From Bacteroides fragilis (lineage in GTDB: Bacteria > Bacteroidota > Bacteroidia > Bacteroidales > DTGW01): DNA of 64,000 nt. The notes beneath the pieces were generated by a model. That model made no database searches and had not been told where the DNA came from. It saw only the letters and a list, made by a program, of their open reading frames with translations. The translations under genes and the position numbers were made by a program. Positions 4,218-53,490 of this stretch are shown piece by piece. The first letter of the stretch is position 1. Each line of letters begins with the position of its first letter. Location: positions 66,349-130,348 of the forward strand of contig CAMDBI010000004.1 in NCBI GenBank assembly GCA_945889005.1, given 5' to 3'.

Positions 4218-4219
4218 TT

Positions 4220-26516: not shown

Positions 26517-29500
26517 ATGTGCAAAAAAAAACAAATGAACTCGGTTTTTGAAGACTTAACAACCTATTTGAATAACAAATTAGTTATCCATTTAGTATTG
26601 TTTTTTTTATTATTTAATATTTCAATTTCTTTTGATATACTCAATGCCCAAACTACCTTTACATGGAATGGTGGAACTGGCAATTGGAATACTGCCGGAA
26701 ACTGGTCTAAATCGGGAGGAACCAGTACTTCGACCTGGCCGGGTCAAAATGTTAACCAGAATGATATCGTTATTGTCAATTCTACAGGAACAGTCACTAT
26801 TAACGTTGCTTTTAACAGTAATAGTGTTCAGGATGTAAGTATCAACACAGGAACAGTTACCGGAAACAATGTTACCTGCCTTATCAATGGAAACCTCTCT
26901 GTGGCATCTGGTGCTACTTTTAATATAAACCAAACTGCATTAACTGTTTCGGGCGCCACAAGCATATCAGGAAACCTGACCGATGGAAACAATACAGGTA
27001 CTAACACTTTTGCCGGTCTGGTCACTATCAATTCAGGTGGAAATCTTTCAACTGCAACCAACTCTGTTTATAACTTCAACGGAGGAGTAACCAATAACGG
27101 AACTTTCAACCAGACCGGAACAGGGAATATAACGCTAGTAGTCGGCACAACATTTACAAACAATGCTACAGCAACAATTTCGGGAAGTCTCAATTTTGGA
27201 AACTCAGCATCTACTTTTGTCAATGGCAACGGGGCTTCATTAGCATATTTCAATACCAACCGGTTGATGAACACCAATGGTACTCTTACAGCTACTGCCA
27301 GCAACAATACCATTACTTATAGCCGCAACGGTGCTCAGGATATAATAAATACCGATTATTTCAACCTTGTCCTGGCTGGAAACAATACAAAAACCATTGT
27401 GGGAACAACTACGGTTGACGGTACACTTACTTTTGGCGGCACTGCAACCTTGGCTGTTGGAGCTAACACGATGACAGCAGATGCTGTTGTCAGAAACAAT
27501 GCCATCACGATTACAATATCTACTGGTATATTCACGGTCAATAACGATTTAACCCTCAATGTAGCTGACCCTATCACATTCTCGGGTGCGGGTACTCTCA
27601 ACGTCACTGGTAACCTTACTTGTGGAACACTTACAGGAAATACAGGCACAATCAACATTGGAGGTGACTTTAGTCCAAATGCTTATATCATCAATACTTC
27701 TACAGTAAATGCCAATGGAACCACCATCCAAACACTGGGGCCTGTAAGTTATTACAACCTCCAGATCAATGGCGGAGGAACAAAAGCTTTATCGGGAAAT
27801 ACTACTTTTTCCAACAGCCTGACTCTCAATTCGGGGTTTTTACAATTGGGCAACTACAACCTTACCATCCCCAATAATCTTTCTATTTCCGGAACGATTG
27901 GTTCAGGAGCTTTTATTGAAACCAACGGCACAGGGGTTTTGATCAAACAAGGTACTTCAATCCCTCAATTTGCAATGATCTATCCGGTAGGATCAGGAGG
28001 GTCATACACTCCGGTGCAAATTAGTAGTTTTTCGGCAACAGGTATCATAAGTCCAGCAACTATATCTGTGCGTTCGTCAAACTCTCCGGCTGCCGGAATC
28101 TCAGGTACTCAGCCATTGAACCGGCATTGGGTTACCTCATCTACAAACTTTACCGGAAGTGTCCTGGCAAACATCCGTTTTACCTATGCCTTGTCAGATG
28201 TCCCGGTTGGTAAGGATGCCAACGATTACGAAATCTTGTACAACCCTTCAGGCTCCTGGATAATCCCACTAGGATCGAGCCCCATTGGATACAACCCGAT
28301 TTACTCTTCTGCATCCAACACACTCAATGCAACTTGGTCGGCAACTATTTCCGAAAAAAAAACATTTTACTCGCTCATTTCTGGCGATTGGGACAACAGT
28401 GCGACATGGACATTGGATCCGTCGGGGACTCAGCCCAACAACCCATCGAACCTCACACCAACTACTTCTCCAAATGCCGCTTTCGACGAGGTGGTAATCC
28501 TTTCGGGACGAACAGTTACAGTTAACTCCAATTCAAAAAGCAACGCCAAGCTAACCGTATTGGGTATTCTAAACCTGGGTACAAGCAGTGGGCATAGCTT
28601 TACCTCCATACTGGGGAGCGGTAAAATCCGCTTGGCCGGTGATCAGTTTCCTGCAGGTGATGCTTCCGATTTCGTTTCAGCCGGACAAGGCGAAGGTACT
28701 GTGGAATACTATGGAAACACTTTTAACCTTTCAACTGCACGGACATTCTATAACCTGGATATTGCAATGACTGCAGGTAATTCTGTGTTTCTTTTGTCTA
28801 ATTATACCATTAATGGCAATTTAAATGTCAATTCTGGCACTTTGTCATTAAATAACTCGGTTGCAACTAATGCGCTCACTATTAATATTCTGGGCAATGT
28901 TTCTGTTGGTGCTTCCGGGATCATTCGAACGGGTTCAGCCACTGCACGACATCAGCTAAACCTGTATGGCAATTTTACCAACAACGGCGATGTGCAGTTT
29001 ACCAACCGGGTTGCGGCAAATTATACTGCTGAAGCAACAGATGGGATTGTAGATGTCAATTTCCTAAGCAGCACCAAAGACCAAAGCGTATTGTGCAACG
29101 GACCAAGCAATTTCTATCGGATCGAAATCGATAAAGGTACCGACGACACCTATGTATTGAACCTGGATGCAAACCAGCTTTCTTACTTCAATCTTTTTGG
29201 ATTTGCCAATGAAAACCATGGAAGCATATCAGCTTCGCAACTTACCAACAATCTCAATGCGCTTGGTTTAATTAAAGGGACTGTTCGTATAGGCAATAAT
29301 ATTAACATTCCTCAGCTAAATAATAGTGGAAATTATAACATTTCTGAATCTGCCATGCTTTGGGTAGATGGTGGTACTGTAACCAAAGCAGCCGGTGTAG
29401 CTATTGTGAATTATGGAAAAATAAAAGTTTCTGCGGGAATATTAAACTCACTGGTTTCTAGTGGAATTACCTTGCGTGAAAAAGGTTTTGTATATATTCA

Positions 29501-32500
29501 AGGTGGAACTACTAATATCAACCAGTTGAGAACTTCTGTGATTTCCGGAACCCACATTGGAGGGTATATCCAAACCGATGGTACAATGAATATATTAGGA
29601 GGTTTAACAGATACTGATTATTATACATTTTGTTTGACATACAACAATACCGTATTCAATATGTCAGGTGGTACATTAAAAGTACTTACATCAAACGGAA
29701 GAGGAAGTGTTTTTATTAATTCTGCTCCGGAGAATATCAATGTTACTGGTGGGCATGTAATTGTAGAGGCCAATACAAACCAAAACCCGATTATCACCTC
29801 TACAGCTCCATTTTGGAATCTTAGCTTTAAAAACTCTTCTGGAACTTCTCGCAACTTTGTTCTTCAAGACGGTACATTAGTTGGTGCTACAGATGAAAAT
29901 CTAGCTGCACAACCTTTAAAAGTGTTAAACGATTTTCGGATTTGGGGTACTGAATCAGGTGGTGTCGGATACTCCGCTATTAATTTCAGACCTGTAACCA
30001 GCACTACCAATGTGAACGATGTTTATATAGGAGGTTCATTTTACATTGAAAATGGGGCCTCTTACAGTTCAGTATTTGGAGGAACTTCTCCTTATAATAG
30101 TCTTGCCAATCAGCCGACTCATAAAAATACCACTCATTTTTACTCTACAACGGCTTCTTCAGGTTTGGATACCTTTTATTATGGCAATTCCACTGGAACT
30201 TTAGAGTTGGGAAATATTGAAGTAAACCGCAGTCACGGATCCGAAGTTCGTTTGGTGTCTGCGGCAGCTAGGGCGCTCGAGTCGGTAATGGTAGATGTTA
30301 ATGGCAATATTTCGGTTTTTTCCGGAACATTGAATCAGCACTTGTTTTCGCTGCGAACTTGGGGAAGCATTACTAACAACGATCGGCTTGGCACTTGGTA
30401 CCCGGGAACCACTCCCAACAGGGCTCAAATTCAATTTGCCGATAATCCTGCATTTACACTCAATACAACAACAGGTGCAATTATGGGCAATGTCCAGTTC
30501 AATGTTACTCCACCTTCTCTGGTAACCCTTACAAGCGATATTGTAATTGAACGTGTGGAATATGTCAAGGGTTTGATCTACCTCAAAAAATACAACCTGA
30601 AAATAGATGAACTTTGGAATATGGATGCTGGTTTGTTCGAAAATGCTACCGCTAATAGTATTATGAAAGTTACCAACAATGGCCTGGACCCTGGTTGCAA
30701 TTCTATGATATTTACCAATGGTAAGGCTAGCGACAAAGGTTTGACTTTGAAAATTTCAGGCAACACAACTGTCGAAGGCTTTTCTAGCATTCTGAACAAT
30801 ACTAGTCCCATCTCGTTCCCTATAGGTTTTACTACCGATGGTGGTGCTACCCTATATTTCCGACCTGCCCAAATGAAAGTCAAAGACTTTTCAGACGATG
30901 GCTATGTTACCATTCGTCCGGTATCTGGTGTACTTACTCTCACCGATATAACAGGGGGAGAATTGTTACAACACTATTACCGGGTAAGCCATGCCGGGTT
31001 TTCAACTCTTCCCAATGTAGCTTACCGTTTTTATTACCGCAACCAGAATATCTCCGATGTGGTTGACAAAATCAACCCGGCCACTCAGGAAATCAATTAC
31101 GTTCCCGGCAAAGTGCTTGATCAGTTGCCCTATACCCGAAGCTACGAAACCCACACCGACGATATTATCAAAACTTCCGATACCCGACTGATTGTTTTCA
31201 ATGGAACCAGTTCCGGAGGGGAATTCGATCAGGACGATTTTGTCGGTTTTCTTGTCGAAAACGCCAATTACACCGCCGGACAAATCAACCGCTTTGCTGG
31301 TTCACCACAGATTTTTTACTCCAGAAGAACAGGAGGCGCAATGGCCTGGAACGATGGAAACAACTGGTCATTGGTCGGTTACGATGGTGCTGCTGCCGGA
31401 GATTATCCTCAAGCCGGTGATGTGGCTCGTATAAAAGGATCTGCTATTGCCAACTCGGGTGGTCGCCACTGGTACGATTTGAATGGAACATTTGATATCA
31501 ATACGGCAGAAATATTTTTCGATATTGTCTCTGATCTTACCCCTGCACCCTGGGGACCCAGAATACAGGTAGACGTAGACAGAACAATCAACTCTACAGT
31601 AATCAGAGGGCGTGGAACTCTTTACCTGAGAGTCGATGCCACCAATCAGGCAATGGTCAATGCCGATATCGGGGATTTTGCCAATACGACCGGTTCGGTG
31701 ATTAATTATGTACAGTCTCAAGGCAACAATTCAACCGTGACCATTCCTTCAAACCTTAGTGAATACCCGCGTCTCGATTTTGAAGGAGAAAGCGGCACTG
31801 GGCGTAGGATCCGGATTGCCCACCCGGCTACTGTAAATTATCAATTGGCAGTTGGACAGAATGCAATTTTGGTGGTGGACAACAATGTATCGGTTAAAGG
31901 CAATATTCAGGCCCGAGATAACTTAGATAATGCAAGTATTGAGTTTGGTCAGTCGGGAAGTTGGACGCTTGAAACGATGGGTAATTTAAATTTAGGACCT
32001 TCTGGGGGTACTTATCAATTCGATTTTTCTGTTCAAAATTCAACTCCATCGACTCTGACTCATACTCTGAAAGTTCATGGAAACGTCAACAGGAATGTAA
32101 CTGGTATGTTCGACCTGTACAATGGAACCGGTACTGCAAACAATGCTATTCTCGAACTGTCTGGTACCTCCGATGCTTCGTACAATTACTTTGCAGGCAC
32201 CAACCCCGATCTGTACCGCATCGTGATGAACAAAGGAACCGACAAATCCAATACCTTTACTTTCAACAACCCCTTTACGCTCAATGGCTCGACCAATGCA
32301 ACCCCAAAAGCCATCGAACTTAGAAATGGGACCTTAGTTATGAACCATGCATCCATCAGTTTTAACCTCACTACCGGTGGGGCTGCATTTGAAATTCCTC
32401 AGGAATCGGGGCTTGAAATGAAACTGGGTGCTGCCTTTGCCAATGGCAATTCAGGTATTTTACTCGATGGTTTACTGAAATTGTCGGGTGGTTCTCTAGA

Positions 32501-35500
32501 CATGAGCGACATTGGTACCGGAGGAGACAATTTTATTGAATATTCTGCTTCCGGATTTGCTACTATAGAAGTCAGTAACGGAACTCTTACCGTTGGTAGT
32601 CAGGTTCGCAGAAACATAAACTCCAATATCGGTATACTGAAGTACATACAAAGCGGTGGGTCGGTAATTGTTGGTCGCAATCAGGCATCTATTGCCAACA
32701 GGGGTGTGTTTGAGATTCTTAATAGTGGGAGTAAATTTATTATGACCGGGGGCGACCTATACATTGCTCGTGCCCAGACAGCTCCCACTCTTTCTGCTTT
32801 TTATTTCAATCCGGAAGACATTACCATTACCAGTTCGGCAAATATACATATTGGACATAGCTCCACACCGGCTTCACAGATCATTGGCATCTATGCTGCT
32901 GCCAATATCCCCAAACTGAGGGTCAACAATACTTCCGGCAACAACCCAATAGCTAAACTCGAGATTGTTCCTGCTACCATTACTCAACTCTTCGAAATCG
33001 ATGCCAATGCCACGTTCAATGCCAATGGGCTAGACCTACATCTCGAAGGAAACATGAATGTCCTCGGAAATTTTCAACACAACAACAACAACACTTATTT
33101 CGATGGGTCGTCCGATCAGACTATTACAGGGAATGGCTCTTTCAATTTTTACAACCTAACCAAAACTACCGGGAATAACCTGATCCTGAATCCTGTAAAT
33201 ACCAACCTATCTATTGGCAACAAACTCTCGCTTCAAGCCGGAACATTCACTGACAATGGCAATACTATAACTGTTTTGGGCGACTGCGAAAACGATGCAA
33301 CCCATATCTACGGCGGATCAGGCGATGGAATTTATATGAACGGTACTCAAAATCAAAACATTACCGGCAACGGCACATTCGGAAAAATCACCATCAACAA
33401 CCTGAACGGAATCAACGTTCCTGTCGGGAATCAGATCTCGATTGCCAATTCTTTAAAAATGATGTCGGGGGTCATATATATTAACAAAAATCTTTTGAGC
33501 CTATTGGTTGATGCAACCATTGAGCAAGCATCTCCTTTCACCGGTTACAACATGATTGAAACCAATATTTCCTTTACCGACAATGGGGTGAAAAAGGTCT
33601 TTCCATCTGGTAGTACCCCAAATTTCATCTTCCCAATCGGTAGTGGCGGAAAATACACTCCGGTAACCTTCAACATCACTGCTAATGGCAATAGTACAGG
33701 TTCTGTTACCGTGAAACCTGCCAACGAAATGCATCCGGGTATCGTGGAAGATACCGAAACTTCGACCCAGATCGTTGACAAGGACAATGCCTTGCAATAC
33801 TATTGGACATTAAAGCCATCCGGCATCAATGCAATGGATGCGACTGTTAAAATGCAGTACGCGAGTGAAGATTTAAAAACAACCGCCCCATACACCAGTG
33901 CCGATTACATCAATGCCATGCTCCGCAACGATGGAAACGGCAACTGGAACAAGTTCAACGATTTTGCAGCATTTGACGAAACCAACCGGGAACTCAATTA
34001 TAGTTTTACCGGTGCAACAGACAACGATCTATATGCCGATTACACGGCAGGAGCGGTAGATATTGCTCTAAATGGTGCAATACCCGACAATGTGATTGCC
34101 TACACCGCCAATTCTTCTGGCAATTGGTCAACTGCTGCTACTTGGACACCAAACATCATCAACGGGCCACGTGGAGCGATTGCTCGAATTCCCGCTCCAC
34201 TTTCAATAGATATCACCACAAATGCACAGGCTGTTTACCTGACCGAAATCAATGGCACACTCAACATAGGCACTACTCACAGTCACCGACTTGGAATTGT
34301 AGAAGGTAACGGACGGCTGCACCTCGAAGCAGGGGAACTGCCCGCTGGAGTCTATGATCAATTCTTCTCTGGATCAGGTGGTACAGTGGAGTTTAGCGGA
34401 AGTAACTCCTACGATGTATTGGGAAATACCCTTGCAGTGAACCATCTTACTTTTACAGGTTCGGGCGAAAAACGACTGCCCAATAACAAACTCGACATAC
34501 TGGGCAATTTGCTTATCGATGGTGCCGGACTTTCTTTGAACAATTACCACAACCAAAAAATTGAAATCAAAGGAAATTTCCAACGTACATCTGCTACGTT
34601 TAATGCCGGAACAGGGTCTAATGCAACTGTAATTTTTTCAGGAACTCTTGCTCAACAAATACAAGGTGCTATGACTGCTTCCAATGCTTTTAATAATCTT
34701 GAAGTTAAAAACAACAATGGTATCTCAACCAATGCTGACGTTGAGATCAAAGGTCAGTTAAAACTCACTTCGGGCTTGATTAACACTGGTTCCAATAATT
34801 TTACAATAAAGCAGGGTGCATCAGTTAGTCCTGCCAATGGATTGGCAACTTCATTTGTAAATGGCACTCTTACCAAAGAAATGCTCAATGGACAAAGCTT
34901 TAGTTTTCCGGTGGGTAATAATGCATCTAACTTAGGAACCATCGGCTTGCTCAATGTTAACGGGCCTTCGGGATTACAAAATTGGCGAACTACCTATACG
35001 TATGCCAATCCAAATACTATTGGTAATACCGACGATTTTCTGGCACCTGTCAATTCTGTAAGTGAAACAGAATACTGGAGGGTGCAAGCCCCAACAGGAG
35101 GAGGCTCTAAAATAAGCATCCGTCTCGATGGTTCCAGCGATATAGCCAATGCCCATGCTTCAGATCTTTATAACCTTAGGGTGGTTGGTTGGGATCCGGT
35201 GGATGCCCGCTGGGAAGTTGTGGGATCTTCAGCTACTGTTTCAGGAACAAATCTTTTCGGGACAGTCTCTACTTCCGGTTTTGTCAATTATGGCACATAC
35301 AGCTATTTCACCCTAGCATCGGTAACCCCGGTTGTGTCAGGAACCGCTAGTATTACCAGTAGCAATATATCAATATGTAACGGACAGAGTACCAGTATTG
35401 TGGTTTCCCTTACAGGCACTTCGCCTTGGACCATTACCTACACTGCAAATGGCAATCCAATTAGTTCGCCTGTAATAAATTCTAGTCCCTACACATTTGC

Positions 35501-37289: not shown

Positions 37290-37462
37290 CTTTTGTCAAT
37301 ACTTTATTTATGTTTGTCAAAAATAGTACTCAGATTATAATTATTCAGATATTTTTACATTAGAAATAATTATTTATTCAACTGCAAGCTGAATTTAATA
37401 TTTTTATTGTAAATTTATTTGTAAAAAAAAGAGATAAAAACTTGAAACTTAAAAAAACAAAA

Positions 37463-46600: not shown

Positions 46601-47398
46601 AATGCTACTGTAGCAATAGGCGAAACAGTAACGTATTCAACTGCCGATGTTGTAGGTCATACCTACGTTTGGACTGTAAGCAATGGTTCAATTGTCGGAG
46701 TCAATACCAATAGTGCTGTCTCAGTTCAATGGGCAGCATCAGCCGGTTCGGGTTGGGTAAGGGTAAAGGAAACAGTTACAGTTGGAGCTTGTAGTGATTC
46801 AACTTCAAATTATGCCGTTACCATTACCGATATACCTAATCCGGTTGTTAGCGGTACTACTCATGCTTGTGCTAGTCCTTTAACAACATACACATATAGT
46901 ACTCCAAGTGTTGGTACTCATACATATTTATGGACTTTGCCATTAGGTGGAGGAACTATTTCAGGAAGCAGTACAAATAATACTGTAAATGTTATCTGGA
47001 ATACTGTTGGTCCACGTTCGGTAAGCGTTGCTGAAACAGGTTCTTCAACTGTCAATAATACTTTGCCTGTTACAGTCAATGACATACCAGCTATCGGAAA
47101 CACAGTTACAGACCCTACAATTTGTGACGGTCAAACAGCAATTATTGTTGTTCAAGGTGCTGCTGCTGGTATTACATATCAATTGCGACTCAATACCGAC
47201 GATTCTAACCAAGGAGTAGCAGTAAGTAGTGGCTTAGGGGGCGATGTTAACATCTCTATAAGTCCTTTAATAAATACGACTTATAATGTGTATGTAACAA
47301 ATGAGTTTTCTTGTAATGCTGAGCTTACCGATTTGTCGATTGTTACTGTTAATAAAACACCTGTTACAGGACCTATGTATCGTCAACCAAACCAATAA
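37607..47398 (+). CDS. Giant secreted surface protein B (about 3263 aa from the ATG at 37607), a collinear paralogue of protein A. No recognisable T9SS CTD. Ends in the PVTGPMYRQPNQ tail.
   Basis: The listed ORF starts at TTG 37511. ATG 37607 (or 37649, MLPDLQGLKRLLLLLIGVVVFVGGVLGQ) gives a normal signal peptide. Module openers: SGNWNANTTWQ, SGSWHNPTTWT, TGDWDQTSTWS, SGNWFDGTKWS. Motifs shared with A: FYRIEIDKG..TYVLN.DA, APFWNL, (F/V)YP(V/I)G...YTP.T. The exact start is uncertain. Confidence 0.85.
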   Translation: MVKPLLKYTIHSNIMLPDLQGLKRLLLLLIGVVVFVGGVLGQTVGDYQTRASGNWNANTTWQVYTAGSWVNCNSGDYPGVASGAGTVNILNNHTVTITSNVPNSIGALSINGGGSDSYIQFNPGVSLTVTGQTYLNSNSNNDEKSITVDAGIFSTGSISSNSDSNGDTRDAYIRISTGTVTVDGNIDLNSTSLRTYIRFTDNGTLNVGGTITGGGITSTVGGGANAPTSGTVNYNNAAQTVGTYTYNNLTLSGSGLKTTTGVTVNGILSMEGTATASVVPNYGTGATLQYAGSALQTTGVEFPTSPSAIPNLTINNANGVNLNSSKTVSGSLDLKQGSLSIGANTLTLSGTTTRNAPGTGTITGNASGNISIGGTGAFGTLFFTGGSNTINNLTINRTASGTITLGTDLSVAGTLTSTAGTINTAYNININNTDACGAGVVNATAGTITYSGTTQNIISGSYYILTKNNASATASLCSNIRINNILNVGAGIINLGTYNITISEGASITGAFSTSNMLQTSSTGMLIKEGNASTDFTMVYPVGTVSNYTPMTISSLTATVAGTGSVSVRAVAAVAPGPPAANSTDLQKYWSVTSNNLSAINANVNFVYNNPGEVGSGGNQTIYIPYLYSGAAWSMPAGSSAAGVNPFSVTGTSVLTGVWTAREKPNIVTYYSYQSGSWHNPTTWTTDPSGTLSVNSAVPDADDKVVVLNGRLIYTNSNGITIGSTQINDGGSLDLKATINHNLGDVRGKGILRLQSNTFPAGTFTEFESTAGGTVEYYNNADFNITHANYNNVIFNMSASNIVAYILSNITINGNLTITRGTLNINNNSATTRLDVTVTGNVTVATNGNIRTGTGSTGAVSATSAHRFIIKGNFTNNGTAYFTNLTAADYINYQNNRVEVVFNNPYADQNVVINGVTRFYRIEIDKGIDQTYVLNIDATAANLFYLWGVNNRMGVTPSPDAPNIRQDNALGLQAGTVRLGSNITLPSLAEENVSDDDLNYHVDEDACLWIDGATVTHTTSFNGGSSNSFVLYGKLRISNPVSSFNINTLHGIVMRANAAIHIENGSLSVPCIRTSTVSGAHRGSFNMSGGTLTITGNLSGSDSHASFSFTYPQMSFRMSGGSMVINQAGDGGNGLEKSLVIGSLAENNEVTGGTIRIIAANRNANFTSTAPFWNLQVDAANTTYTSQIVDFNGSSSASSVLAQPLIVKNDFTLQNFAVFNSGNQNVSIGHDFTMSASSEYNCGTNTTTFNGTGGQRFTNAGSIQTGTGLNNLAFSNSSNTDIISANIVVRGNLTIDNNCYVNDVGRTISVTGNITNLGIHTSQAGGGIELNATTDQTIGGNGNGSFGTLVISKSSGTCSFLANQSISGNLRLATGILDIGIHKLTLAATSNIYDALSPATTAIFSATKMIRTAGNFSDGGINKSYNATGSFVYPVGTATDYTPATITFNTAPVTWGSVTIKPVTRDVPFVTSTTTSLNYYWDVSSNGITGIAANGVSHSYKFVDADVREAVAGDINSYVPGAYRPNSWSFIPDPAEVTPAPGNLIRFNNINYIDGSFTAGRTDAFQSTVVYYSRQTGDWDQTSTWSTDSVGGPIAGTLPQSNTPVVIGKAAMSHTITMPVGFNNVTIGSLQINENSILDIASTTGHNFGAVPYGQVIGTGTLRISSVASSVVFPDGDFGKFLNTGGGTVEYYTNGTNFTLPDSNFYYNNLILNPANGQTITMPNTDLRIFRTLTKTGAGTCNLNSVAVRALQIDTNLLVTTGTLMFMNNTFAQTINVNGNIEVSNGAVFDVNNITNATNIINLSGNLVNNGTFRMYNGNSARVCNVNFIGNVDKQISGSGATTQFNILTVNKGESRNTILDVTASNLALNTTLATALILNNGTFRLSSPTVSLTLANSGSFRVPNTGCLSANGGTINIGGAAATNATDLYLDGRLEVYAGTVNIGTLGNNLNNDIEYSSAGSPELVVSGTGILFVNGQIRRPLTITTGSLRYTQGGSSVVTVDGRNFANTRAMLEILNSGSSFTMSGGTLNISRNFNNTLYPELYLSPETYSVSGGTVRIGSSNAGNNTQFNILSSAPLYNFTVDATTTNKNVNLKIYPLTVLNNFIIEGNSVFKANGLDVNIAGSLTNNNTDNSTGINNGGYQSGSLSQNTTFNGSVAQSISGVTNNVTNFANLINASTGSVSLNTNTALRVNNNLTLNSGSLSDGGNNITVVGDIVNRATHSSLSSSGGIVMAGAIRQSISGSGHGTFGNLELNNILNVDLKDNMSIDGVLRFTAGSLYIDDYRLTLGVNSSIAGTTDDTKMIIVNGVISDAGVRKVFPLNNSFFIYPIGVAGKYTPVTYRFLSNTNNNAYIDVRPVNLANPANNNAVGDELNYYWYVTSSGFAGAYSLNHTYKYLNADVSGTESEYLAGRYVSGAWAPVGGISGAVDATADSIHLASVNYIDGEYTAGATGNFYVKPTLYSMVASGNWFDGTKWSTTGHTGPTCNCVPDGNPVIIQAGHSVTLNNNSASAYSVELNGLLNIGQTVFHSLGHVTGGGKMDLTSTAEGVYVFPGGEFFGFMANSTSTLEFSGNNAASLPLKPGNYYKPYQNVILSGTGSKQISAENLKILGDLTINDGTTLDNSLFNKDISISGDWNDLNSGVSGGFISGTGSVSFDGSDNQLINISNPTTEEKFYNLQINNTGSTGVTISGGGDIGVAGILYLTDGNLITTTNNILNISSTGNNTIVGGGNSSFVDGPMQKNMIAGSSFNFPIGDGLVYGNAVISNVSVSGYYLFEYINHNPGNDTYNPSTKTAPIDVVSNVEYWHLLGPGSAAGDVTLRWNSASGIIPSNVAGRTKLRVVEWNSSWENRGATINDGGTSSGTIRTNISPIPTLAGDHYFTIGLESLPTATITSGNASICDDGSSTNISIALTGTAPWTIKYRINGANETTSPPIGSSPYLLAISNAIPALSTGGPGSYIFNVSYVSDATGSSGIQNFVTTATITLNESPNPVIAGNATVAIGETVTYSTADVVGHTYVWTVSNGSIVGVNTNSAVSVQWAASAGSGWVRVKETVTVGACSDSTSNYAVTITDIPNPVVSGTTHACASPLTTYTYSTPSVGTHTYLWTLPLGGGTISGSSTNNTVNVIWNTVGPRSVSVAETGSSTVNNTLPVTVNDIPAIGNTVTDPTICDGQTAIIVVQGAAAGITYQLRLNTDDSNQGVAVSSGLGGDVNISISPLINTTYNVYVTNEFSCNAELTDLSIVTVNKTPVTGPMYRQPNQ

Positions 47399-47642: not shown

Positions 47643-48464
47643 ATGAAAAAACAATCTAAATTATTGAATATGAAAAAGTTTAGCAAATTATTAACAATCG
47701 TTGCCCTCGTGGCAATGGGAATGACCCAGGCTTGGGGTCAAGAAGTGGCAATGCCTGCAAATTTTCAACAGCATGGTAATACAAGTGCTGGAATTCCATC
47801 AGTTCCTGCTTCTCTCGAACTTACCGACTCTGTTACAATTAACTCTTCGCTTCAATATTGGGTACAACCTGATGCTGCAGTTCTTACCGATCCAAGTACT
47901 TTTACTTGGGGTACCACAATTGCTTTAGCATCTCAAACTGCAGGGGGTACATCAAACTTAGCAACTTTCAATTTTACAGCAGAAGGTACAGGTAATATTA
48001 CAGTTCGAGAAGATTCACCTGCTCCTAATTCTTGCACAGGCTCTACTACTACTATTCCTGTAAGAGTTATTGCTGCTCCAGATGTTACAGCCGCGACATT
48101 TTCATCCTTAGCATGTCCAGCAGGAACTGATGGTACATACACATTAGCCGGACCAACAGCAACCTTAACAATTGCATGCTCTGTTTTAGGTAATAAAGGT
48201 GTTTCTTTGCACTATTCACTTTCTGGTCCTACAGGGTTTACAACTGTTGGTTCAACATTAGCAACTTTAGGTAATGGTAATACGATTGATTTGTCAGGCA
48301 TAAACTTAACACATTCAGGTACATATACATTAACAATTATTGATATTACTGACCGTATTGCCACAAAATCGGGATTACTAACAATAGCTGATGGTACAAC
48401 TGCAACATTTGTTGTAAACAGAGTTCCTGTTACTGGTCCAGTATATCACTTACCAAATAATTAA
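47643..48464 (+). CDS. Small secreted paralogue 1 (273 aa), ending in PVTGPVYHLPNN
   Basis: Signal peptide LLTIVALVAMGMTQAWGQ. Motifs LQYWVQPDA, STFTWGT, ITVREDSPAPNSCTGSTTTIPVRVIAAP, TYTLTIIDITDRIATKS. The tail matches both giants. Confidence 0.8.
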   Translation: MKKQSKLLNMKKFSKLLTIVALVAMGMTQAWGQEVAMPANFQQHGNTSAGIPSVPASLELTDSVTINSSLQYWVQPDAAVLTDPSTFTWGTTIALASQTAGGTSNLATFNFTAEGTGNITVREDSPAPNSCTGSTTTIPVRVIAAPDVTAATFSSLACPAGTDGTYTLAGPTATLTIACSVLGNKGVSLHYSLSGPTGFTTVGSTLATLGNGNTIDLSGINLTHSGTYTLTIIDITDRIATKSGLLTIADGTTATFVVNRVPVTGPVYHLPNN

Positions 48465-48516: not shown

Positions 48517-49398
48517 ATGAAAACAATTAAAAGAATTTTAATCGTAGCTGCTATCGCAGCTTTAACTGGCAATTTGTTTGCTCAGAATTCTGTTGCAGCC
48601 TTGCCTGCTTTGCCAGCAATTCCTGCAGATCTAACATCAACCGCAGGTGATATTGTAACTCAAAACTCTGTTATGTACTATTTAGTTACACCAGACCCAA
48701 TTATTGATGCCTCTCCATTTTACAATAATTCTGTTTTTAACTGGACTGTTACACAAGGTACTATACTTGGAACAACTGCTGCTGCTGCTCCTCTTGCAGC
48801 GTATAAAAATGAAAATCAAATTAGTATCGATTATGATGCTGTTGCTGTAGGTTCTTATGCTAATAACATTAGTGTTATCGAAAGGTCTGTGCCTACTTTT
48901 AGTGCAGGTGCAGGCTGTGATGGTAGTACCGAATATCGTAATGTGCAAGTTGTCGCAAGACCTTTATCTCCTTCTATAGCAGTTGCTGATGAAAATCAAG
49001 GTGATTGTGGTTCTTCAGGTTCATTTACGATTCCTTATGGTTTGCCTGCCGAAGTTTCTGGAAATTATCCTTTGTACGTTGAATTTATTATTTCCGCATT
49101 TGATGTTGATAATAACGCAATAGGTACTCCTCAGACACGAATTTATTCATTAGCTACACCTACTACTGCTTTCACTTTGCTTGATGCAGATTTAGATTTA
49201 GCCGATCCTGCCGATGCAAATGCTACTCCTGATGGTGTAAAGTATACAATTGATTTAACAAATGTATGGGATCAATATTCGGTTCGCGCTTCTAACCGAA
49301 CAGATGCCGATGTTGTTACTTTAGCTAGTGCAAATGATGTAAATATCTACATTCTACCTACTCCTACAACAGGTACTATCAATCATGTTGCTCCTTAA
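48517..49398 (+). CDS. Small secreted paralogue 2 (293 aa), with degenerate tail PTPTTGTINHVAP
   Basis: Signal peptide AALTGNLFAQ. Motifs MYYLVTPDP, SVFNWTV, ISVIERSVPTFSAGAGCDGS..VQVVARP, KYTIDLTNVWDQYSVRAS. Confidence 0.75.
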   Translation: MKTIKRILIVAAIAALTGNLFAQNSVAALPALPAIPADLTSTAGDIVTQNSVMYYLVTPDPIIDASPFYNNSVFNWTVTQGTILGTTAAAAPLAAYKNENQISIDYDAVAVGSYANNISVIERSVPTFSAGAGCDGSTEYRNVQVVARPLSPSIAVADENQGDCGSSGSFTIPYGLPAEVSGNYPLYVEFIISAFDVDNNAIGTPQTRIYSLATPTTAFTLLDADLDLADPADANATPDGVKYTIDLTNVWDQYSVRASNRTDADVVTLASANDVNIYILPTPTTGTINHVAP

Positions 49399-49447: not shown

Positions 49448-50257
49448 ATGACATTATTCCGTAACATATTGCTCCTTTTCTGTGTAATGGCTCTGCTTAG
49501 CAGCAGGGTACATGCACAGGTTTGGGTGCTTTCAACAAAACTGGGTCATGAGATTGACTCGGTAACTGTGGGAAGTCGTGCGGGGTATGCCATTACGTAT
49601 GATCCAGTTTTAAGAAAAATAGCTTTTCTCAATCCATCTGTATTCGATTGGAAGTTTAAAAATATAACTAATATTTTGCCTCTTACTGGCAGTACAAGTC
49701 CTCTTTCTGCTGTCGATGCTTTTGGTTTTTATACCGATACGGCTATAAGTGTTATCATGCCTTCGATTGTTGGTGTAGAAACTCTTACTGTTCACGAGAA
49801 AAGCATGCCCAAGATAGGGACAGGTTGCTCAGACCCAAATGGTCAAAAATTACCAATACGAATACTACCTCGCCCCAAGATTGAACTTGTCAATACTACT
49901 AATATCCCAAGTTCAACAGGCTCAATAGATATACCCGTTAAACTCAATGGCTATGGGCCATGGTTGGTTACTGTTGAAATAAAATATAACGACAATACTA
50001 CACAAACAATTGAAGTTGAAGTTGGAAAATACGGAGATAATCCCGGAGCTTCAACGCCATTGGAGCTTATAATGAAGGTTTTACCTTCGCAACCCGACAA
50101 TATAAATACTATTACAATTTTAAATGTTGGTGATCGCATTAGTGCAAAATCGCTCGATCAGGATCTGGTCAAATCGCAAGCCAATGAATTGCCAACAAAT
50201 AGGTTCTTTGTTAAAAAAGCACCAAAACCCAAAACTTATCACATTAAAAACAAGTAA
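49448..50257 (+). CDS. Small secreted paralogue 3 (269 aa), with degenerate tail FFVKKAPKPKTYHIKNK
   Basis: Signal peptide MALLSSRVHAQ. Motifs GYAITYDP, SVFDWKF, LTVHEKSMPKIGTGCSDPNGQKLPIRILPRP, GYGPWLVTVEI, ITILNVGDRISAKS. Confidence 0.75.
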   Translation: MTLFRNILLLFCVMALLSSRVHAQVWVLSTKLGHEIDSVTVGSRAGYAITYDPVLRKIAFLNPSVFDWKFKNITNILPLTGSTSPLSAVDAFGFYTDTAISVIMPSIVGVETLTVHEKSMPKIGTGCSDPNGQKLPIRILPRPKIELVNTTNIPSSTGSIDIPVKLNGYGPWLVTVEIKYNDNTTQTIEVEVGKYGDNPGASTPLELIMKVLPSQPDNINTITILNVGDRISAKSLDQDLVKSQANELPTNRFFVKKAPKPKTYHIKNK

Positions 50258-50277: not shown

Positions 50278-51276
50278 ATGATCTTTAAAAAGAACATATT
50301 ACTTTTTTTAATAACAATTGTGGCTGTTACGAATCTGTATGCCCAGAAATGGGACAATTACCAAAAGATCGATAGTCTGCCCAATGGCATTGTTTTTACG
50401 GGCGATACCAATAATTTTGCCGACTACCAAACTATAGGCTCTGTTGCACTTTACTATGCTATGCCCGACCAATCAATTAAAAACGATATTGGAAAAGATT
50501 TGCGAAACTCACTCTTTCAATGGGCAATATTAAAGGACACTACAAGCAATCAAAACCTTTCGAAAAAAGGAATACATAAAAAATACAATGAAGATGCGGG
50601 TTTAGTTCCGTTGACCAAAGATAGTGCCTTTTATACAAAGGGCTTAAAATATTATACCGACAATTTAGTGGCTGTAAACTGGATCGATACTGGTTTGAAT
50701 TATGTAGGCGTTGCCGAACAGTATTTGCCATACTATGGCAATGTAGTTGAACCTACGATCGATCAGTATACTTTTACAAATGTATATGTATTGCCGGTTC
50801 CAAGTTATTCGTTTCCAGATACCAATTCGGTTACGATCTGTAATCCCGAGTCGGACTCAATGTCATTTAAGTTTCCCTTAAACTTATGGGGAATTGGCGA
50901 TTTCAATGTAAAGATTAAAGTCGATTTTTATAGACAGAAACTAACAGGAGGAGTTGTAACAGATACAATTTCTTTCGATCGGTTTGTAATTTCAAAAATA
51001 GAATTTAATGATCATCTTTGGGATTATCAAAAAGCCTTGAATCAATATGATATTATGCAGCGAAAAGAAGTTGAAATAATGTTATATAAAAAATTTGGTT
51101 GGGGGCGCTACGAAATTAGTATAACAAATGTGAGCGACCAAGTTTCGAGAAAATCGTTGGTCGATATTAATAGCAAGAGACATTCGTTTGATGCAATGGG
51201 AAAGTATTATATATATGTAATGCCAACCACAGCTGAACCAAAAATTATACATTTGCGAGATTTAAATAAAAAATAA
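50278..51276 (+). CDS. Small secreted paralogue 4 (332 aa), with degenerate tail YIYVMPTTAEPKIIHLRDLNKK
   Basis: Signal peptide VAVTNLYAQ. Motifs LYYAMPDQ, SLFQWAI, VGVAEQYLP...VYVLPVP, YEISITNVSDQVSRKS. Confidence 0.7.
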   Translation: MIFKKNILLFLITIVAVTNLYAQKWDNYQKIDSLPNGIVFTGDTNNFADYQTIGSVALYYAMPDQSIKNDIGKDLRNSLFQWAILKDTTSNQNLSKKGIHKKYNEDAGLVPLTKDSAFYTKGLKYYTDNLVAVNWIDTGLNYVGVAEQYLPYYGNVVEPTIDQYTFTNVYVLPVPSYSFPDTNSVTICNPESDSMSFKFPLNLWGIGDFNVKIKVDFYRQKLTGGVVTDTISFDRFVISKIEFNDHLWDYQKALNQYDIMQRKEVEIMLYKKFGWGRYEISITNVSDQVSRKSLVDINSKRHSFDAMGKYYIYVMPTTAEPKIIHLRDLNKK

Positions 51277-51312: not shown

Positions 51313-52374
51313 GTGAGATTGAGTTTATTCATATTGAAATTAGTACTTATAGTTGTTATGACAGCTAATAGTGTATTTGTTTTTTCGATCAAATACAGGG
51401 TTTGTCATGGCTCACTCGAACGCTATTCGTCAGTAGGTTTACAAGGCTCAACTTATTCTTGGAAAATTGAGAATCTTAAAGGCGAGTCATTTACTTCGGC
51501 TATTAAGGTTTATTACCGAAATGGCGATTCGATCGATATTCGATGGAATGTTCCGATCGATACATTTGTGTTGAAAGTTCAAGAAATTACCCAATATAAT
51601 TGTAATAGTGTATATGTTGGCGATACTATAGTAATTGCAGGCGACTATTTTGATTTTCCGAAAGACAGTATTTATATTTGTGAAAATTCAACAGGCACTA
51701 TTACGGCACCAGGCAACTTTAATGAATACATTTGGAGCACTACCGAAATTAGCAAGTCTATTCAAGTGTCTAAGGCTCAAAAATATACAGTTCAAGCCAA
51801 TTCGAGCGATGGTTGTTTACTTAAAGATAGTATTTGGGTAAAAGTTAGGAAAAATCCAATACTAGATATTGGCCCTAAAAAGCTAAGATTGTGTGGTGAA
51901 TATAATAATAGAATAATACTGTCAGTACCCGAAAAGTTTAATAATATTACTTGGAGTACAGGCGATACAACCAGAACATTGGCGATAAATTTAAACTTTG
52001 AGCCATTTAAAAATATAACTGTAAAGGCATCTGACACATCGGGTTGCTTCGGAAGCGATACCATTCAATTGAATAAATGTGATCCAAATTTATTTGCCGA
52101 GAAAATACCTACTGCATTTACACCCAATGGCGATGGTCAAAACGATGTGTGGGATATTCCAAATATTGTCGATTTCGATATAAACAACAAGTGTATAGTT
52201 GAGATTTATGATAGATGGGGGCGTATGGTGTTTAAATCGGATAGAGGTTACCCAAAACCATGGACAGGTCGAACAGCAGATGGTAGAAAACTTCCCGTTG
52301 ATGCTTATTACTTTATAATCGACTTTAAAGATGGTAGCGATCCTTTGACCGGTTCAGTTACATTGCTAAGGTAG
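51313..52374 (+). CDS. T9SS type B sorting-domain (gliding-motility-associated C-terminal domain) protein, 353 aa, GTG start
   Basis: C-terminal AFTPNGDGQNDVWDIPNI...VEIYDRWGRMVFKS...PWTGRTADGRKLPVDAYYFIIDF...GSVTLLR. The N-terminal half carries three Cys-bracketed Y-x-W Ig-like modules. Confidence 0.9.
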   Translation: MRLSLFILKLVLIVVMTANSVFVFSIKYRVCHGSLERYSSVGLQGSTYSWKIENLKGESFTSAIKVYYRNGDSIDIRWNVPIDTFVLKVQEITQYNCNSVYVGDTIVIAGDYFDFPKDSIYICENSTGTITAPGNFNEYIWSTTEISKSIQVSKAQKYTVQANSSDGCLLKDSIWVKVRKNPILDIGPKKLRLCGEYNNRIILSVPEKFNNITWSTGDTTRTLAINLNFEPFKNITVKASDTSGCFGSDTIQLNKCDPNLFAEKIPTAFTPNGDGQNDVWDIPNIVDFDINNKCIVEIYDRWGRMVFKSDRGYPKPWTGRTADGRKLPVDAYYFIIDFKDGSDPLTGSVTLLR

Positions 52375-52497
52375 TATTTTTGTTTGTCTTGATATTTAGT
52401 CGATTAATCAAAATTGTCGGATAGTTGATGTAAATCACCATTGTTTTTAGAACAAAGTTATATACCTTGCGTAGAATTTAGCAAGAATGCAAATATC

Positions 52498-53490
52498 ATG
52501 AAAAGGAAAATTACATATCTGTTTTTGTTAGCCATGATTTCGACAGTAGTTTCTGCTTCGGGGCCGATGTACAGTCAGTATATGTTCAATCGTTTTTTGA
52601 TTAACCCAGCCGATGCAGGAAGCGAAGGTTATACATCTATCAATGTTACTGCTCGCGAACAGTGGATTGGAATTCCCAATTCTCCCAAGACGCATCTAAT
52701 AAGCTTTCAAACCCGATTGCTACGCAATAGTTTTGTTTCAAAATCTTCGTCGTTGCGAAAGAAATTTGCACGTCGCTCAAGAAACGGAAAAGTTGGGGTC
52801 GGAGCATTTTTGTATAACGATATGAATGGGCCTGTTAGTCGAAATGGTTTACAGTTGACATATGCATACCATATAACAATGGCTCAGAATCTATTGTCGT
52901 TTGGTTTAACTACCAAAGGTTATCAATATTCGATAGATCGTTCGAAATTGAAAACAGCACAAGCGAATGATGATTTTATAAATACAACAGATTTTTCGAA
53001 CTTTGTACCCGATGCAAATTTTGGTGCACAATATATCAATCCTTTTTACCATGTTGGTTTTTCAATTAACGATTTGTTTCAGTCGAGTTTTAAATTTGGA
53101 GAAGGAACTATGCCCGACGCACAAACACGTCGTTTATATAACTTAACAGGTAGTTATAAATTTGAAATCAATAGATTTTATATGTTAGAACCCGATGCTT
53201 TGATTAAACTATCAGAAAATGGTGCTTTTCAGCTCGATTTAAGTGGGAAAGTATATTATAAAGAAGATTATTGGGGTGGTATGTCGTACAGAACCGGTAC
53301 ATTTAGTAATTCAGAAGCTGGTGCTTTGATTATTTTTGGTGGTGTACGTGTCGATAAGTTTTATTTTGGCTATGCTTTTGACTATACGCTAAGCAATATA
53401 ATGACTCATACATTAGGTTCGCACGAGTTTATGTTGTCTGTTAAATTTGGCGACAATGCCCGCCGTTATCGCTGGTTAAATCGTTATTAG
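52498..53490 (+). CDS. PorP/SprF-family type IX secretion system membrane protein. Start moved to ATG 52498; the listed TTG 52441 adds a non-signal extension.
   Basis: MKRKITYLFLLAMISTVVSAS signal, then SQYMFNRFLINPADAGSEG, the family-typical opening. Sits immediately downstream of a type B CTD gene, as for sprB-sprF. Confidence 0.88.
   Translation: MKRKITYLFLLAMISTVVSASGPMYSQYMFNRFLINPADAGSEGYTSINVTAREQWIGIPNSPKTHLISFQTRLLRNSFVSKSSSLRKKFARRSRNGKVGVGAFLYNDMNGPVSRNGLQLTYAYHITMAQNLLSFGLTTKGYQYSIDRSKLKTAQANDDFINTTDFSNFVPDANFGAQYINPFYHVGFSINDLFQSSFKFGEGTMPDAQTRRLYNLTGSYKFEINRFYMLEPDALIKLSENGAFQLDLSGKVYYKEDYWGGMSYRTGTFSNSEAGALIIFGGVRVDKFYFGYAFDYTLSNIMTHTLGSHEFMLSVKFGDNARRYRWLNRY

What the first reader, a model, noticed from the sequence alone, without database searches (positions are those of the whole stretch)
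26517..53490. 27-kb co-directional surface-protein cluster: two giant paralogues, four small paralogues, one type-B-CTD protein and a PorP/SprF protein
Seen: eight same-strand genes fill about 42% of the window. They are bounded by strong terminators at 26348-26381 and 53531-53563. All eight products have N-terminal signal-like sequences. Spacing is tight from 47643 onward (20-123 nt). Larger AT-rich gaps containing TAnnTTTG boxes precede the giant B gene and the first small gene. Established: sprB-type operons in gliding Bacteroidota pair a giant adhesin carrying a type B CTD with a cognate PorP/SprF-like protein. Inference: this cluster uses the same secretion/anchoring pair but with a different logic. 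The CTD sits on a small 353-aa protein, while the giants and their small paralogues carry a different shared C-terminal tail. That suggests a multi-subunit cell-surface filament or adhesin complex that has not been described, to my knowledge.
Basis: partly seen in the sequence, partly recalled or inferred. Interest (0 to 1): 0.85.

Follow-up and report, generated by a model that had tools for sequence, protein, structure and literature searches.

The report
Surface protein cassette with new tail
This 27-kb cluster is an expanded copy of a gene cassette conserved in uncultured Bacteroidales, in which an ordinary type IX secretion anchor pair always sits beside secreted proteins that lack any known secretion domain and instead end in a short, almost invariant tail of unknown role.

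Summary
Eight co-directional genes lie between two real terminator hairpins: two giants, four small paralogues, a 353-aa type B CTD protein and a PorP/SprF-like barrel. Neither the giants nor the small proteins carry a type A or B CTD, by Pfam, NCBIfam or profile-profile tests with a working positive control.

They share a C-terminal tail, P-x-T-G-P-x-Y-H/R-x-P-N. It is the most conserved block of the small family. Between small proteins and giants, it is almost all that is shared.

The gene set is co-conserved. In 45 non-redundant loci from Bacteroidales MAGs, the tail-bearing small gene is followed by the small type B CTD gene in 43 of 43 loci and by the PorP-like gene in 37 of 38. A tail-bearing giant lies directly upstream in 13 of 28.

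Relatives of the same Ig-like domain outside the cassette end in ordinary type A or B CTDs, so tail and CTD are mutually exclusive.

Best reading: a T9SS-dependent surface adhesin assembly. The CTD protein and PorP-like carrier form the anchor, and the tail couples CTD-less proteins to it. This is inference; no interaction, expression or localisation was tested. I found no description in the searched literature. I rate it a new variant of a known kind.

The parts
26348..26381 (+). Intrinsic terminator of the upstream amtB gene; marks the left border of the cluster
   Evidence: GC-rich hairpin followed by T10, read directly
26517..37289 (+). Giant A (3590 aa). Sec signal, then about 2900 aa rich in G/T/S/N with no Pfam match, then about 650 aa of Cys-paired PKD-like Ig domains, then the tail
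   Evidence: (PKD_6 79 bits at residues 3115-3195; no CTD). It is 30-36% identical to giant B
37251..37286 (+). Tail of giant A: PVTGPLYRKPNN
37290..37607 (+). AT-rich intergenic region with TAnnTTTG boxes at 37309 and 37463; a possible internal promoter
   Evidence: The motif is common, so this is weak evidence
37511..47398 (+). Giant B (3295 aa from the TTG; the likely start is ATG 37608 or 37650). It contains a roughly 890-aa super-repeat present three times
47360..47395 (+). Tail of giant B: PVTGPMYRQPNQ
47643..48464 (+). s1 = famA (273 aa), the universal tail-bearing member. Sec signal, two Ig-like beta-sandwich domains (residues 62-143 and 147-258), then a tail with no assigned secondary structure
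   Evidence: (AF2 mean pLDDT 86.8)
48426..48461 (+). Tail of s1: PVTGPVYHLPNN. This is the most conserved block of the family
   Evidence: 0.91 column identity against a mean of 0.43
48517..49398 (+). s2 = famB paralogue (293 aa); tail PTPTTGTINHVAP
49448..50257 (+). s3 = famB paralogue (269 aa); tail PKPKTYHIKNK
50278..51276 (+). s4 = famB paralogue (332 aa); tail PTTAEPKIIHLRDLNKK, the most degenerate of the set
51313..52374 (+). Small type B CTD protein (353 aa). Three small Ig-like domains: the first is homologous to the famA N-domain, and the third is related to the last domain of the giants. The type B CTD covers residues 264-353 (nt 52102-52371)
   Evidence: (AF2 mean pLDDT 90.3)
52441..53490 (+). 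PorP/SprF-family outer-membrane carrier (likely start ATG 52498). It has an invariant C-tail FGDNARRYRWLNRY and no Cys-x-Cys
53528..53565 (.). Bidirectional terminator hairpin; marks the right border of the cluster
   Evidence: 16-bp stem

Best explanation
The cluster encodes a type IX secretion (T9SS)-dependent cell-surface adhesin assembly built from one family of Ig-like proteins.

The PorP/SprF-like barrel and the 353-aa type B CTD protein form an ordinary carrier-substrate pair. The CTD protein is exported through the T9SS translocon and stays bound to its carrier as an outer-membrane-anchored stub. This step follows from established knowledge of the two families.

The other six proteins (famA, three famB and two giants) are Sec-exported and are not lipoproteins. 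They have no known T9SS domain and instead end in a 11-13-residue tail with core P-x-T-G-P-x-Y-H/R-x-P-N. I infer that this tail is the coupling signal. It would dock these proteins onto the stub or carrier module, or onto one another. That would let them be carried across the outer membrane with the module, held on it, or both. The G/T/S/N-rich giants would be the distal adhesive parts.

The three-gene core (famA, CTD protein, PorP-like) is the minimal working unit. The giants and famB are optional add-ons.

Shown here: the gene content, the absence of CTDs, the tail and its conservation, the synteny, and the domain homologies.

Inferred: surface location, the coupling, and the export route.
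For: Synteny. Of 45 non-redundant famA loci, the small type B CTD gene follows famA or famB in 43 of 43 loci with enough downstream sequence. A PorP-like gene follows in 37 of 38. A tail-bearing giant of 2470 aa or more lies directly upstream in 13 of 28. Neighbouring genes differ between loci, and only these three families recur.

Tail. It is the best-conserved 11-column block of famA (0.91 against a mean of 0.43). It is present in 28 of 28 homologues found with the whole protein. It is present in 109 of 121 small hits of an unfiltered profile search, 114 if five near-variants are counted. Between famA and the giants, the profile match covers only the last 27 columns (97%, E 9e-12). The tail therefore behaves as a portable module. 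Class-specific variants recur across species.

No CTD. Pfam and NCBIfam find none. hhalign against type A and type B CTD profiles gives 0.8% probability or less, while the positive control gives 99.8%.

Mutual exclusion. Large relatives with the same domain outside the cassette end in ordinary type A or B CTDs.

The CTD protein is itself a paralogue. Its N-domain matches the famA N-domain (97%), and the giants' last domain matches its third domain (96.5%).

T9SS is present. PorD is encoded in the window (375 bits).

Published work shows that type B substrates stay bound to dedicated PorP-like carriers (PMC9143113, PMC12618676, PMC12635249).

The folds are tandem Ig-like, and the best matches are bacterial adhesins and the Aureispira grappling-hook protein.
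Against: There are no expression or localisation data, and every carrier of the cassette is an uncultured MAG.

I know of no precedent for a CTD-less protein riding on a T9SS substrate, and I found none in the literature searched.

The CTD protein model looks complete, and I could not point to an acceptor site.

The second most conserved famA motif, DRIxxK, is absent from the CTD protein. A famA-famA or famA-PorP contact is therefore just as possible.

Most loci were found with a pattern taken from the tail. The 43/44 figures for famA tails are thus inflated by how the loci were collected. The synteny, the giant and famB tails, and searches are free of that bias.
Confidence: 0.5

Rival explanations
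1. The tail, together with the last beta-strand, is a new minimal T9SS sorting signal. The dedicated PorP-like carrier or the translocon reads it directly. The small type B CTD protein is then only a co-cargo or a cap on the carrier, as proposed for PG1035, and not an adaptor.
For: Tail and CTD are mutually exclusive within one domain family. The tail is a portable module. T9SS signals beyond types A and B already exist, namely type C in ChiA (PMC10202324). The PorP-like protein of the cassette forms its own conserved subgroup with an invariant C-tail.
Against: Known T9SS signals are 7-stranded beta-sandwich domains of about 80-100 aa, not peptides of about 12 residues (PMC10994853). This reading does not explain why a small type B CTD paralogue is present in 43 of 43 loci. 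The famA-type tail appears confined to this family: the scan gave 79 pattern matches, 46 confirmed relatives, and about 23 expected by chance on my estimate. A general sorting signal would be expected on varied cargo.
Confidence: 0.2
2. The proteins form a true polymer, a T9SS-dependent pilus. The tail would be a donor strand that inserts into the next subunit. FamA would be the shaft, famB minor subunits, the giants tip adhesins, and the CTD protein the base subunit held by the PorP-like carrier.
For: All subunits are paralogous Ig-like proteins. The anchor paralogue alone lacks the tail. Both faces of the tail's short I-Y-H-I-P-N stretch are conserved, as would be expected for a buried strand. 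Class-specific tails recur across species, as in ordered pilus assembly. The tail is assigned no secondary structure in the monomer model. Donor-strand filaments built from tandem Ig-like subunits exist elsewhere, for example archaeal threads (PMC9715654) and type V pili.
Against: There is no evidence for an incomplete fold or an open groove. No chaperone, usher, protease or sortase is conserved in the loci. The proline-rich tail (P-x-T-G-P ... P-N) is an odd candidate for a long beta-strand. No multimer model could be run.
Confidence: 0.15
3. [quoted passage not shown] They would act as accessory factors of the carrier, in the way SprC and SprD accompany SprB and SprF. The tail might bind the carrier's invariant periplasmic C-tail (ARRYRWLNRY).
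For: They have Sec signals but no known outer-membrane export signal. The PorP-like C-tail is invariant in 42 of 42 loci and lies outside the family models. The sprCDBF operon is a precedent for accessory genes beside a type B/PorP pair (cited in PMC12635249).
Against: Proteins of 2500-3600 aa, rich in G/T/S/N and built from Ig repeats, are typical surface adhesins. Relatives of the same domain are T9SS cargo with CTDs. A 3590-aa rod is hard to fit in the periplasm.
Confidence: 0.1
4. There is no functional coupling. Adhesin genes simply lie beside a type B CTD/PorP pair, and the tail is only the structural end of an Ig-like domain.
For: Ig-like adhesin genes are common in Bacteroidota. The Foldseek matches are generic.
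Against: Synteny holds in 43 of 43 and 37 of 38 loci across species whose famA proteins share about 26-60% identity and whose flanking genes differ. The tail is far better conserved than the domains and is shared between otherwise unrelated C-terminal domains.
Confidence: 0.03

Closest known systems
Flavobacterium johnsoniae sprCDBF operon (SprB adhesin with its SprF carrier)
   Same: It has a giant surface protein, accessory genes, a type B CTD substrate and a cognate PorP/SprF-family carrier in one co-directional cluster. The carrier anchors the substrate on the surface (PMC9143113, PMC12635249).
   Different: In sprCDBF the giant itself carries the type B CTD. Here the CTD sits on a 353-aa protein, and the giants end in a 12-residue tail. 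The giants show no SprB repeats (PF13573). The carrier lacks SprF's Cys-x-Cys C-tail. No similarity to SprC or SprD was detected by the family scans.
Cognate type B CTD/PorP-like shuttle pairs of F. johnsoniae (for example Fjoh_3952/Fjoh_3951) and the P. gingivalis PG1035-PorP-PorE complex
   Same: A type B CTD protein is encoded next to, or bound to, a dedicated PorP-like barrel. PG1035 is likewise not a giant adhesin and has been proposed to cap PorP (PMC9143113, PMC12618676).
   Different: Those systems are described as pairs, or as a pair plus PorE. Here a third family with its own conserved C-terminal tail is always present. No PorE-like gene is conserved in the loci.
Type V pili (FimA/Mfa1) of Bacteroidota
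   Same: They are multi-subunit surface fibres of Bacteroidales. They are built from paralogous beta-sandwich subunits with shaft, anchor and tip roles, and they are joined by C-terminal strand exchange.
   Different: Type V pilins are lipoproteins processed by a protease. None of the cassette proteins has a lipobox, and none matches the fimbrillin families in Pfam. Type V assembly involves no T9SS CTD or PorP pair.
Donor-strand filaments of tandem Ig-like subunits (chaperone-usher pili; archaeal threads, PMC9715654)
   Same: They have small Ig-like subunits with a terminal extension that could complete a neighbouring subunit.
   Different: No chaperone or usher gene is present. Strand donation is not shown here.
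Aureispira grappling-hook protein GhpA
   Same: It is the best structural match to the CTD protein model (Foldseek E 1.6e-13). It is a giant Bacteroidota surface protein made of similar small Ig-like domains.
   Different: The similarity is at the level of a generic domain chain (TM 0.34-0.36, 13-16% identity). GhpA is a single giant chain, not a cassette of tail-bearing partners.
Type C CTD (F. johnsoniae ChiA)
   Same: It is a precedent that T9SS cargo can use a C-terminal signal that is neither type A nor type B (PMC10202324).
   Different: Type C is a region of about 100 aa. The tail here is about 12 residues, and NCBIfam gave no hit of any kind on these proteins.

Membership tests
T9SS type B CTD substrate (the 353-aa protein) | Full-length match to the type B sorting domain (TIGR04131 / PF13585) at the extreme C-terminus | tested here: met
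   TIGR04131 63.1 bits (cut-off 35) covering model positions 2-85 of 85. PF13585 74.3 bits (cut-off 27). Both cover residues 264-353. hhalign against unrelated type B CTDs gives 99.8%.
T9SS type B CTD substrate (the 353-aa protein) | Cognate PorP/SprF-like carrier gene adjacent | tested here: met
   The carrier gene lies 66 nt downstream in the window. It is adjacent in 37 of 38 related loci.
PorP/SprF carrier family | Match to TIGR03519 / PF11751 above the curated cut-off | tested here: met
   232.4 bits (cut-off 90.55) and 222.4 bits (cut-off 22.3).
SprF proper (gliding-track-coupled carrier) | Cys-x-Cys motif in the periplasmic C-tail, which forms the disulfide link to GldK (PMC12635249) | tested here: not met
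   The C-tail is FGDNARRYRWLNRY and has no cysteine. The same is true in 42 of 42 cassette loci.
T9SS cargo with a type A, B or C CTD (giants, famA, famB) | A recognisable CTD at the C-terminus | tested here: not met
   Pfam and NCBIfam give no hit. hhalign of the C-terminal 125 aa against type A and type B CTD profiles gives probabilities of 0.1-0.8%. Type C coverage rests on NCBIfam holding such a model, which I did not verify.
SprB-type gliding adhesin (giants) | SprB repeats (PF13573) and a type B CTD on the giant itself | tested here: not met
   Pfam hits are PKD_6 above its cut-off in giant A only, plus weak sub-threshold Ig-like hits in both giants. No PF13573 and no CTD were found.
Type V pilin (FimA/Mfa1) | Lipoprotein signal with a lipobox cysteine, and a fimbrillin fold or family match | tested here: not met
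   No lipobox in any of the 44 famA, 15 famB or 13 giant sequences with complete N-termini. No fimbrillin family in Pfam. No type V pilin among the top 50 Foldseek matches.
Chaperone-usher or sortase pilus | A dedicated chaperone plus usher, or a sortase gene with LPXTG followed by a membrane anchor | tested here: not met
   Only three families recur in the loci. The tail's P-x-T-G is not followed by a hydrophobic segment.
Donor-strand polymer in general | An incomplete Ig fold whose groove is filled by a neighbour's terminal strand | not testable with these tools
   Only monomer models were available and coordinates could not be inspected. No multimer prediction could be run.
Surface-exposed T9SS-dependent protein (giants, famA, famB) | Dependence on T9SS for export, and exposure on intact cells | not testable with these tools
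   This needs genetics or proteomics. The organism does encode T9SS PorD.

The most novel reading that the evidence does not exclude
The tail is a new kind of T9SS-linked sorting and assembly signal. It would let proteins without any CTD be exported and displayed by docking onto a small CTD-bearing adaptor held by its PorP-like carrier. With class-specific tails, the proteins would then be assembled in order into a surface fibre: giant tip adhesins, a famA shaft, famB minor subunits and the CTD protein as base. This would be adaptor-mediated type IX secretion and a T9SS-dependent pilus, neither of which has been described.
Probability: 0.2. Interest if true: 0.85.

Novelty: new variant of a known kind. 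Interest (0 to 1): 0.66.

Why it matters
Current models say that every T9SS cargo carries its own CTD, and that each type B cargo has its own carrier. This cassette is conserved across dozens of species. In it, very large, adhesin-like proteins have dispensed with the CTD. They always travel with a small CTD-bearing paralogue and its carrier.

If the tail couples them to that pair, T9SS can export or display partners by proxy. That would widen the predicted T9SS secretome, because current predictors look only for CTDs. It would also explain how some CTD-less giant proteins of Bacteroidota reach the surface. And it would add a new surface structure to abundant anaerobic Bacteroidales from sediments, springs and digesters.

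The tail is short and nearly invariant, so the idea can be tested directly with reporter fusions in Flavobacterium johnsoniae.

Tried and rejected
(1) Ordinary CTDs hidden in the giants or small proteins. Rejected by Pfam, NCBIfam and hhalign with a positive control.

(2) SprB or SprF orthology. Rejected: there are no SprB repeats and no Cys-x-Cys in the carrier tail.

(3) Type V pilins. Rejected: there is no lipobox and no fimbrillin match.

(4) Sortase-like LPXTG reading of P-x-T-G. Set aside. G is not conserved in famB, T is not conserved in the giants, and no membrane anchor follows.

(5) A search for the tail on other kinds of protein, using a profile of the last 50 residues. It returned only five short fragments from 35 candidates. 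It was uninformative and used the last search of that kind.

It was repeated with 16 closer sequences.

(7) A solved structure for the PorP-like protein: none was found by sequence.

(8) A look for a cultured carrier. Ten cluster look-ups gave only metagenomic 'hypothetical protein' entries.

(9) A search for a fourth conserved partner (protease, PorE-like, chaperone) by clustering all flanking ORFs. None was found. Receiver-domain proteins occur in 16 of the 45 non-redundant loci, which I judge compatible with chance.

(10) The Rhodes 2011 sprCDBF paper could not be read. Statements about SprC and SprD rest on citing papers and on my own knowledge.

(11) A resemblance between the tail and the opening PNP strand of type A CTDs. 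It is not significant (-0.3 bits).
Full report
**What is there**

The region 26517-53490 holds eight co-directional ORFs at the stated coordinates. It lies between a strong terminator after the upstream amtB gene (26348-26381) and a 16-bp bidirectional hairpin (53528-53565).

The last two genes are textbook T9SS parts.
- The 353-aa protein ends in a full-length type B CTD: PF13585 74 bits and TIGR04131 63 bits over residues 264-353.
- The 349-aa protein is a PorP/SprF-family barrel: PF11751 222 bits and TIGR03519 232 bits.

The two giants (3590 and 3295 aa) are 30-36% identical to each other. Each is about 44% G+T+S+N. Giant B holds a roughly 890-aa super-repeat present three times. Paired cysteines, typical of PKD-like Ig domains, occur only in the last ~650 residues. 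Pfam finds PKD_6 and weak Ig-like hits near the C-terminus and nothing else.

The four small proteins are paralogues. BLASTP gives s1-s2 3e-7, s2-s3 3e-7 and s3-s4 2e-4. They fall into two subfamilies that match end to end as profiles (hhalign 99.9%, E 8e-38). I call them famA (s1) and famB (s2-s4).

All eight N-termini look like Sec signal peptides. A regular-expression check found no lipobox in any member of these families.

**The tail**

Giant A, giant B and s1 end in PVTGPLYRKPNN, PVTGPMYRQPNQ and PVTGPVYHLPNN. The famB proteins end in looser versions built around P-I-x-H-I-x-N.

Thirty homologues of s1 were found with the whole protein among 5.8 billion sequences. In the 28 that I aligned, P262, H269 and N272 are invariant. 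The protein stops one residue after N272, or two residues after it in two sequences.

Across 44 distinct famA sequences from related loci, the 11 tail columns average 0.91 identity, against 0.43 for the whole alignment.

The three classes have their own recurring versions:
- famA: P-x-P-V-T-G-P-I/V-Y-H-I/V/L-P-N
- giants: K/R-x-P-E/D-T/P-G-P-A/G/L-Y-H/R-I-P-N
- famB: P-T-P-x-T-x-P-I-x-H-I/L/V-x-N

Zero to five residues follow the final N.

One caveat applies. Most related loci were collected with a DNA pattern derived from the famA tail, so the near-perfect famA counts are partly built in. Four results are free of that bias: the giant and famB tails, the 28 homologues, the unfiltered profile search below, and all synteny results.

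**The tail is not a CTD**

NCBIfam gives no hit on the giants or small proteins at E up to 0.1. Pfam gives no CTD hit at E up to 0.01 for the giants and 0.1 for the small proteins.

Profiles of the last 125 residues of famA and of the giants do not match type A or type B CTD profiles built from unrelated proteins (hhalign probability 0.1-0.8%). The cassette's own CTD matches the type B profile at 99.8%.

Between famA and the giants, the profile match is confined to the last 27 columns, that is the final strand plus the tail (97%, E 9e-12). The tail therefore behaves as a portable module attached to different Ig-like domains.

**Structures**

AlphaFold2 with the family alignment models s1 as a signal helix followed by two Ig-like beta-sandwiches (residues 62-143 and 147-258). 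The tail is assigned no secondary structure but has moderate confidence. Mean pLDDT is 86.8. Foldseek returns only generic tandem-Ig adhesins and S-layer proteins, with TM 0.35 or less.

The CTD protein models as three small Ig-like domains plus the CTD (mean pLDDT 90.3). Its best matches are fragments of the Aureispira grappling-hook protein GhpA (E 1.6e-13).

Profile comparison shows that the CTD protein is itself a relative of the others. Its first domain matches the famA N-domain (97%), and its third domain matches the last domain of the giants (96.5%).

**Conservation elsewhere**

Exact-protein look-ups showed the same order in three other genomes with unrelated neighbours and no giants: famA, famB, small CHU_C protein, PorP.

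A scan of one genome per GTDB species returned 44 loci. Nearly all come from uncultured Bacteroidales or Rikenellaceae MAGs. I called ORFs in these loci and classified them with HMMs built from the window and the first three loci. In 45 non-redundant famA loci:
- The small type B CTD gene follows famA or famB in 43 of 43 loci with at least 1.3 kb downstream.
- A PorP-like gene follows in 37 of 38 loci with at least 3.5 kb downstream.
- FamB is present in 13 loci.
- A giant of 2470 to more than 3270 aa, ending in the tail, lies 88-244 nt upstream of famA in 13 of 28 loci with at least 8 kb upstream.

Clustering all flanking ORFs shows that only three families recur: famA/B, the CTD-protein/giant Ig family, and PorP-like. 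The core unit is therefore famA, the CTD protein and the PorP-like carrier. The window holds an expanded version with two giants and three famB copies.

**Family size and the tail/CTD dichotomy**

A profile search of 1.84 billion cluster representatives found 823 proteins at E up to 1e-3 and 399 at E up to 1e-10.
- Among the best 150, 121 are small proteins. Of these, 109 end in the tail by a strict pattern, and five more carry near variants.
- The 24 large multi-repeat hits match only through the repeated N-domain. Most of those with a complete C-terminus end in plain type A CTDs (for example ...YPNP...KVVVMHGN) or type B CTDs (...GTVTLIR), and none ends in the tail.

Within one domain family, tail and CTD are thus mutually exclusive. 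I take this as the strongest hint that the tail stands in for what a CTD normally does.

The famA-type tail also seems confined to this family. The genome scan matched 79 stretches. Of these, 46 were confirmed relatives, and I estimate about 23 matches by chance.

Every source name is 'hypothetical protein' or, for the CTD protein, 'gliding motility-associated C-terminal domain-containing protein'.

**Context**

The organism has a T9SS. The window encodes PorD (NF052317, 375 bits).

Published work establishes four relevant points.
- T9SS CTDs are 7-stranded beta-sandwich domains.
- Type B substrates leave the translocon bound to dedicated PorP/SprF-like carriers and stay anchored on them (PMC10994853, PMC9143113, PMC12618676, PMC12635249).
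- SprF couples to the gliding track through a Cys-x-Cys motif in its periplasmic C-tail (PMC12635249).
- A type C CTD exists (PMC10202324).

The carrier here has no such cysteines. Instead it has a C-tail, FGDxARRYRWLNR[Y/F], that is invariant in 42 of 42 loci and lies beyond the ends of the family models. It is therefore not an SprF orthologue, and I see no sign that it rides the gliding track in the same way.

Four literature searches found no description of a cassette of this kind or of CTD-less proteins exported with a T9SS substrate.

**How it most likely works**

Established knowledge covers the first step. The small CTD protein is exported by the T9SS and remains bound to its PorP-like carrier as a surface stub.

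My inference, at confidence about 0.5, is that the tail couples the CTD-less proteins to this module or to one another. They would then be taken across the outer membrane with it, held on it, or both. The giants would be the adhesive distal parts.

Rival readings:
- The tail is read directly by the carrier as a new minimal sorting signal (0.2).
- The proteins form a true donor-strand polymer, a T9SS-dependent pilus (0.15).
- They are periplasmic accessory factors (0.1).
- The adjacency is accidental (0.03), which the synteny and tail conservation make very unlikely.

I could not separate the first three. No multimer prediction was available, model coordinates could not be inspected, and all carriers are uncultured.

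**Verdict**

The functional reading (filament or complex) is plausible but untested.

I file this as a new variant of a known kind: type B CTD/PorP-like surface anchoring extended by a third, tail-bearing protein family. Interest is 0.66.

Noticed in passing
window 17194-18096 (-): A T9SS PorD equivalog (NF052317, 375 bits; DUF4835). It lies between a recN-like gene and coaBC, with a bamD-like gene nearby. It shows that the organism has a type IX secretion system.
   Followed up: partly
window 53589-54547 (-) and 57514-57909 (-): A SiaB-family kinase and a SiaC phosphoprotein lie directly downstream of the cluster on the other strand. This is a biofilm-regulation partner-switch module. A second SiaC copy lies 3.5 kb further on. 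A regulatory link to the surface-protein cluster is possible but was not tested.
   Followed up: no
window 52441-53490, last 14 residues; PorP-like ORFs in related loci L002-L049: The PorP-like carrier ends in FGDxARRYRWLNR[Y/F]. This C-tail is invariant in 42 of 42 cassette loci and lies outside the Pfam and TIGR models. By analogy with SprF it should be periplasmic. It has no cysteines, and its partner is unknown.
   Followed up: partly
window 2001-5239: A low-GC block (27% in 2001-4000) holds two ORFs without Pfam hits (2398-3276, 3282-4217), followed by a RES-domain protein (4220-5239). It may be a mobile or toxin-type islet.
   Followed up: no
window 62349-63101 (+): A 250-aa protein gives a weak, sub-threshold type A CTD hit (TIGR04183 21 bits; cut-off 23).
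   Followed up: no
window 37511-47398: Giant B contains a roughly 890-aa super-repeat present three times. The first ~2900 aa of both giants have no Pfam match and may be a beta-solenoid-like region. This was not modelled.
   Followed up: partly
tails of famA/famB, e.g. window 48426-48461 and 49357-49395: The stretch V-N-P-A-P-V-T just before and within the tail loosely resembles the opening V-Y-P-N-P-x-x-x-L strand of type A CTDs. The HMM score is not significant (-0.3 bits).
   Followed up: partly
loci L002, L004, L005 (flanks): Signal-transduction genes often lie beside the cassette: MCP-CheR-CheD-CheB in L004, and response regulators with PAS histidine kinases in L002 and L005. Receiver-domain ORFs occur in 16 of the 45 non-redundant loci. 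I judge this compatible with chance.
   Followed up: partly
loci L037 and L049: Two PorP-like genes lie in tandem after the CTD protein gene. The second copy ends in ERRYRWLERY.
   Followed up: no
window 12012-12413 (+): A nucleotidyltransferase substrate-binding (HEPN-like) protein, typical of a small toxin-antitoxin pair.
   Followed up: no
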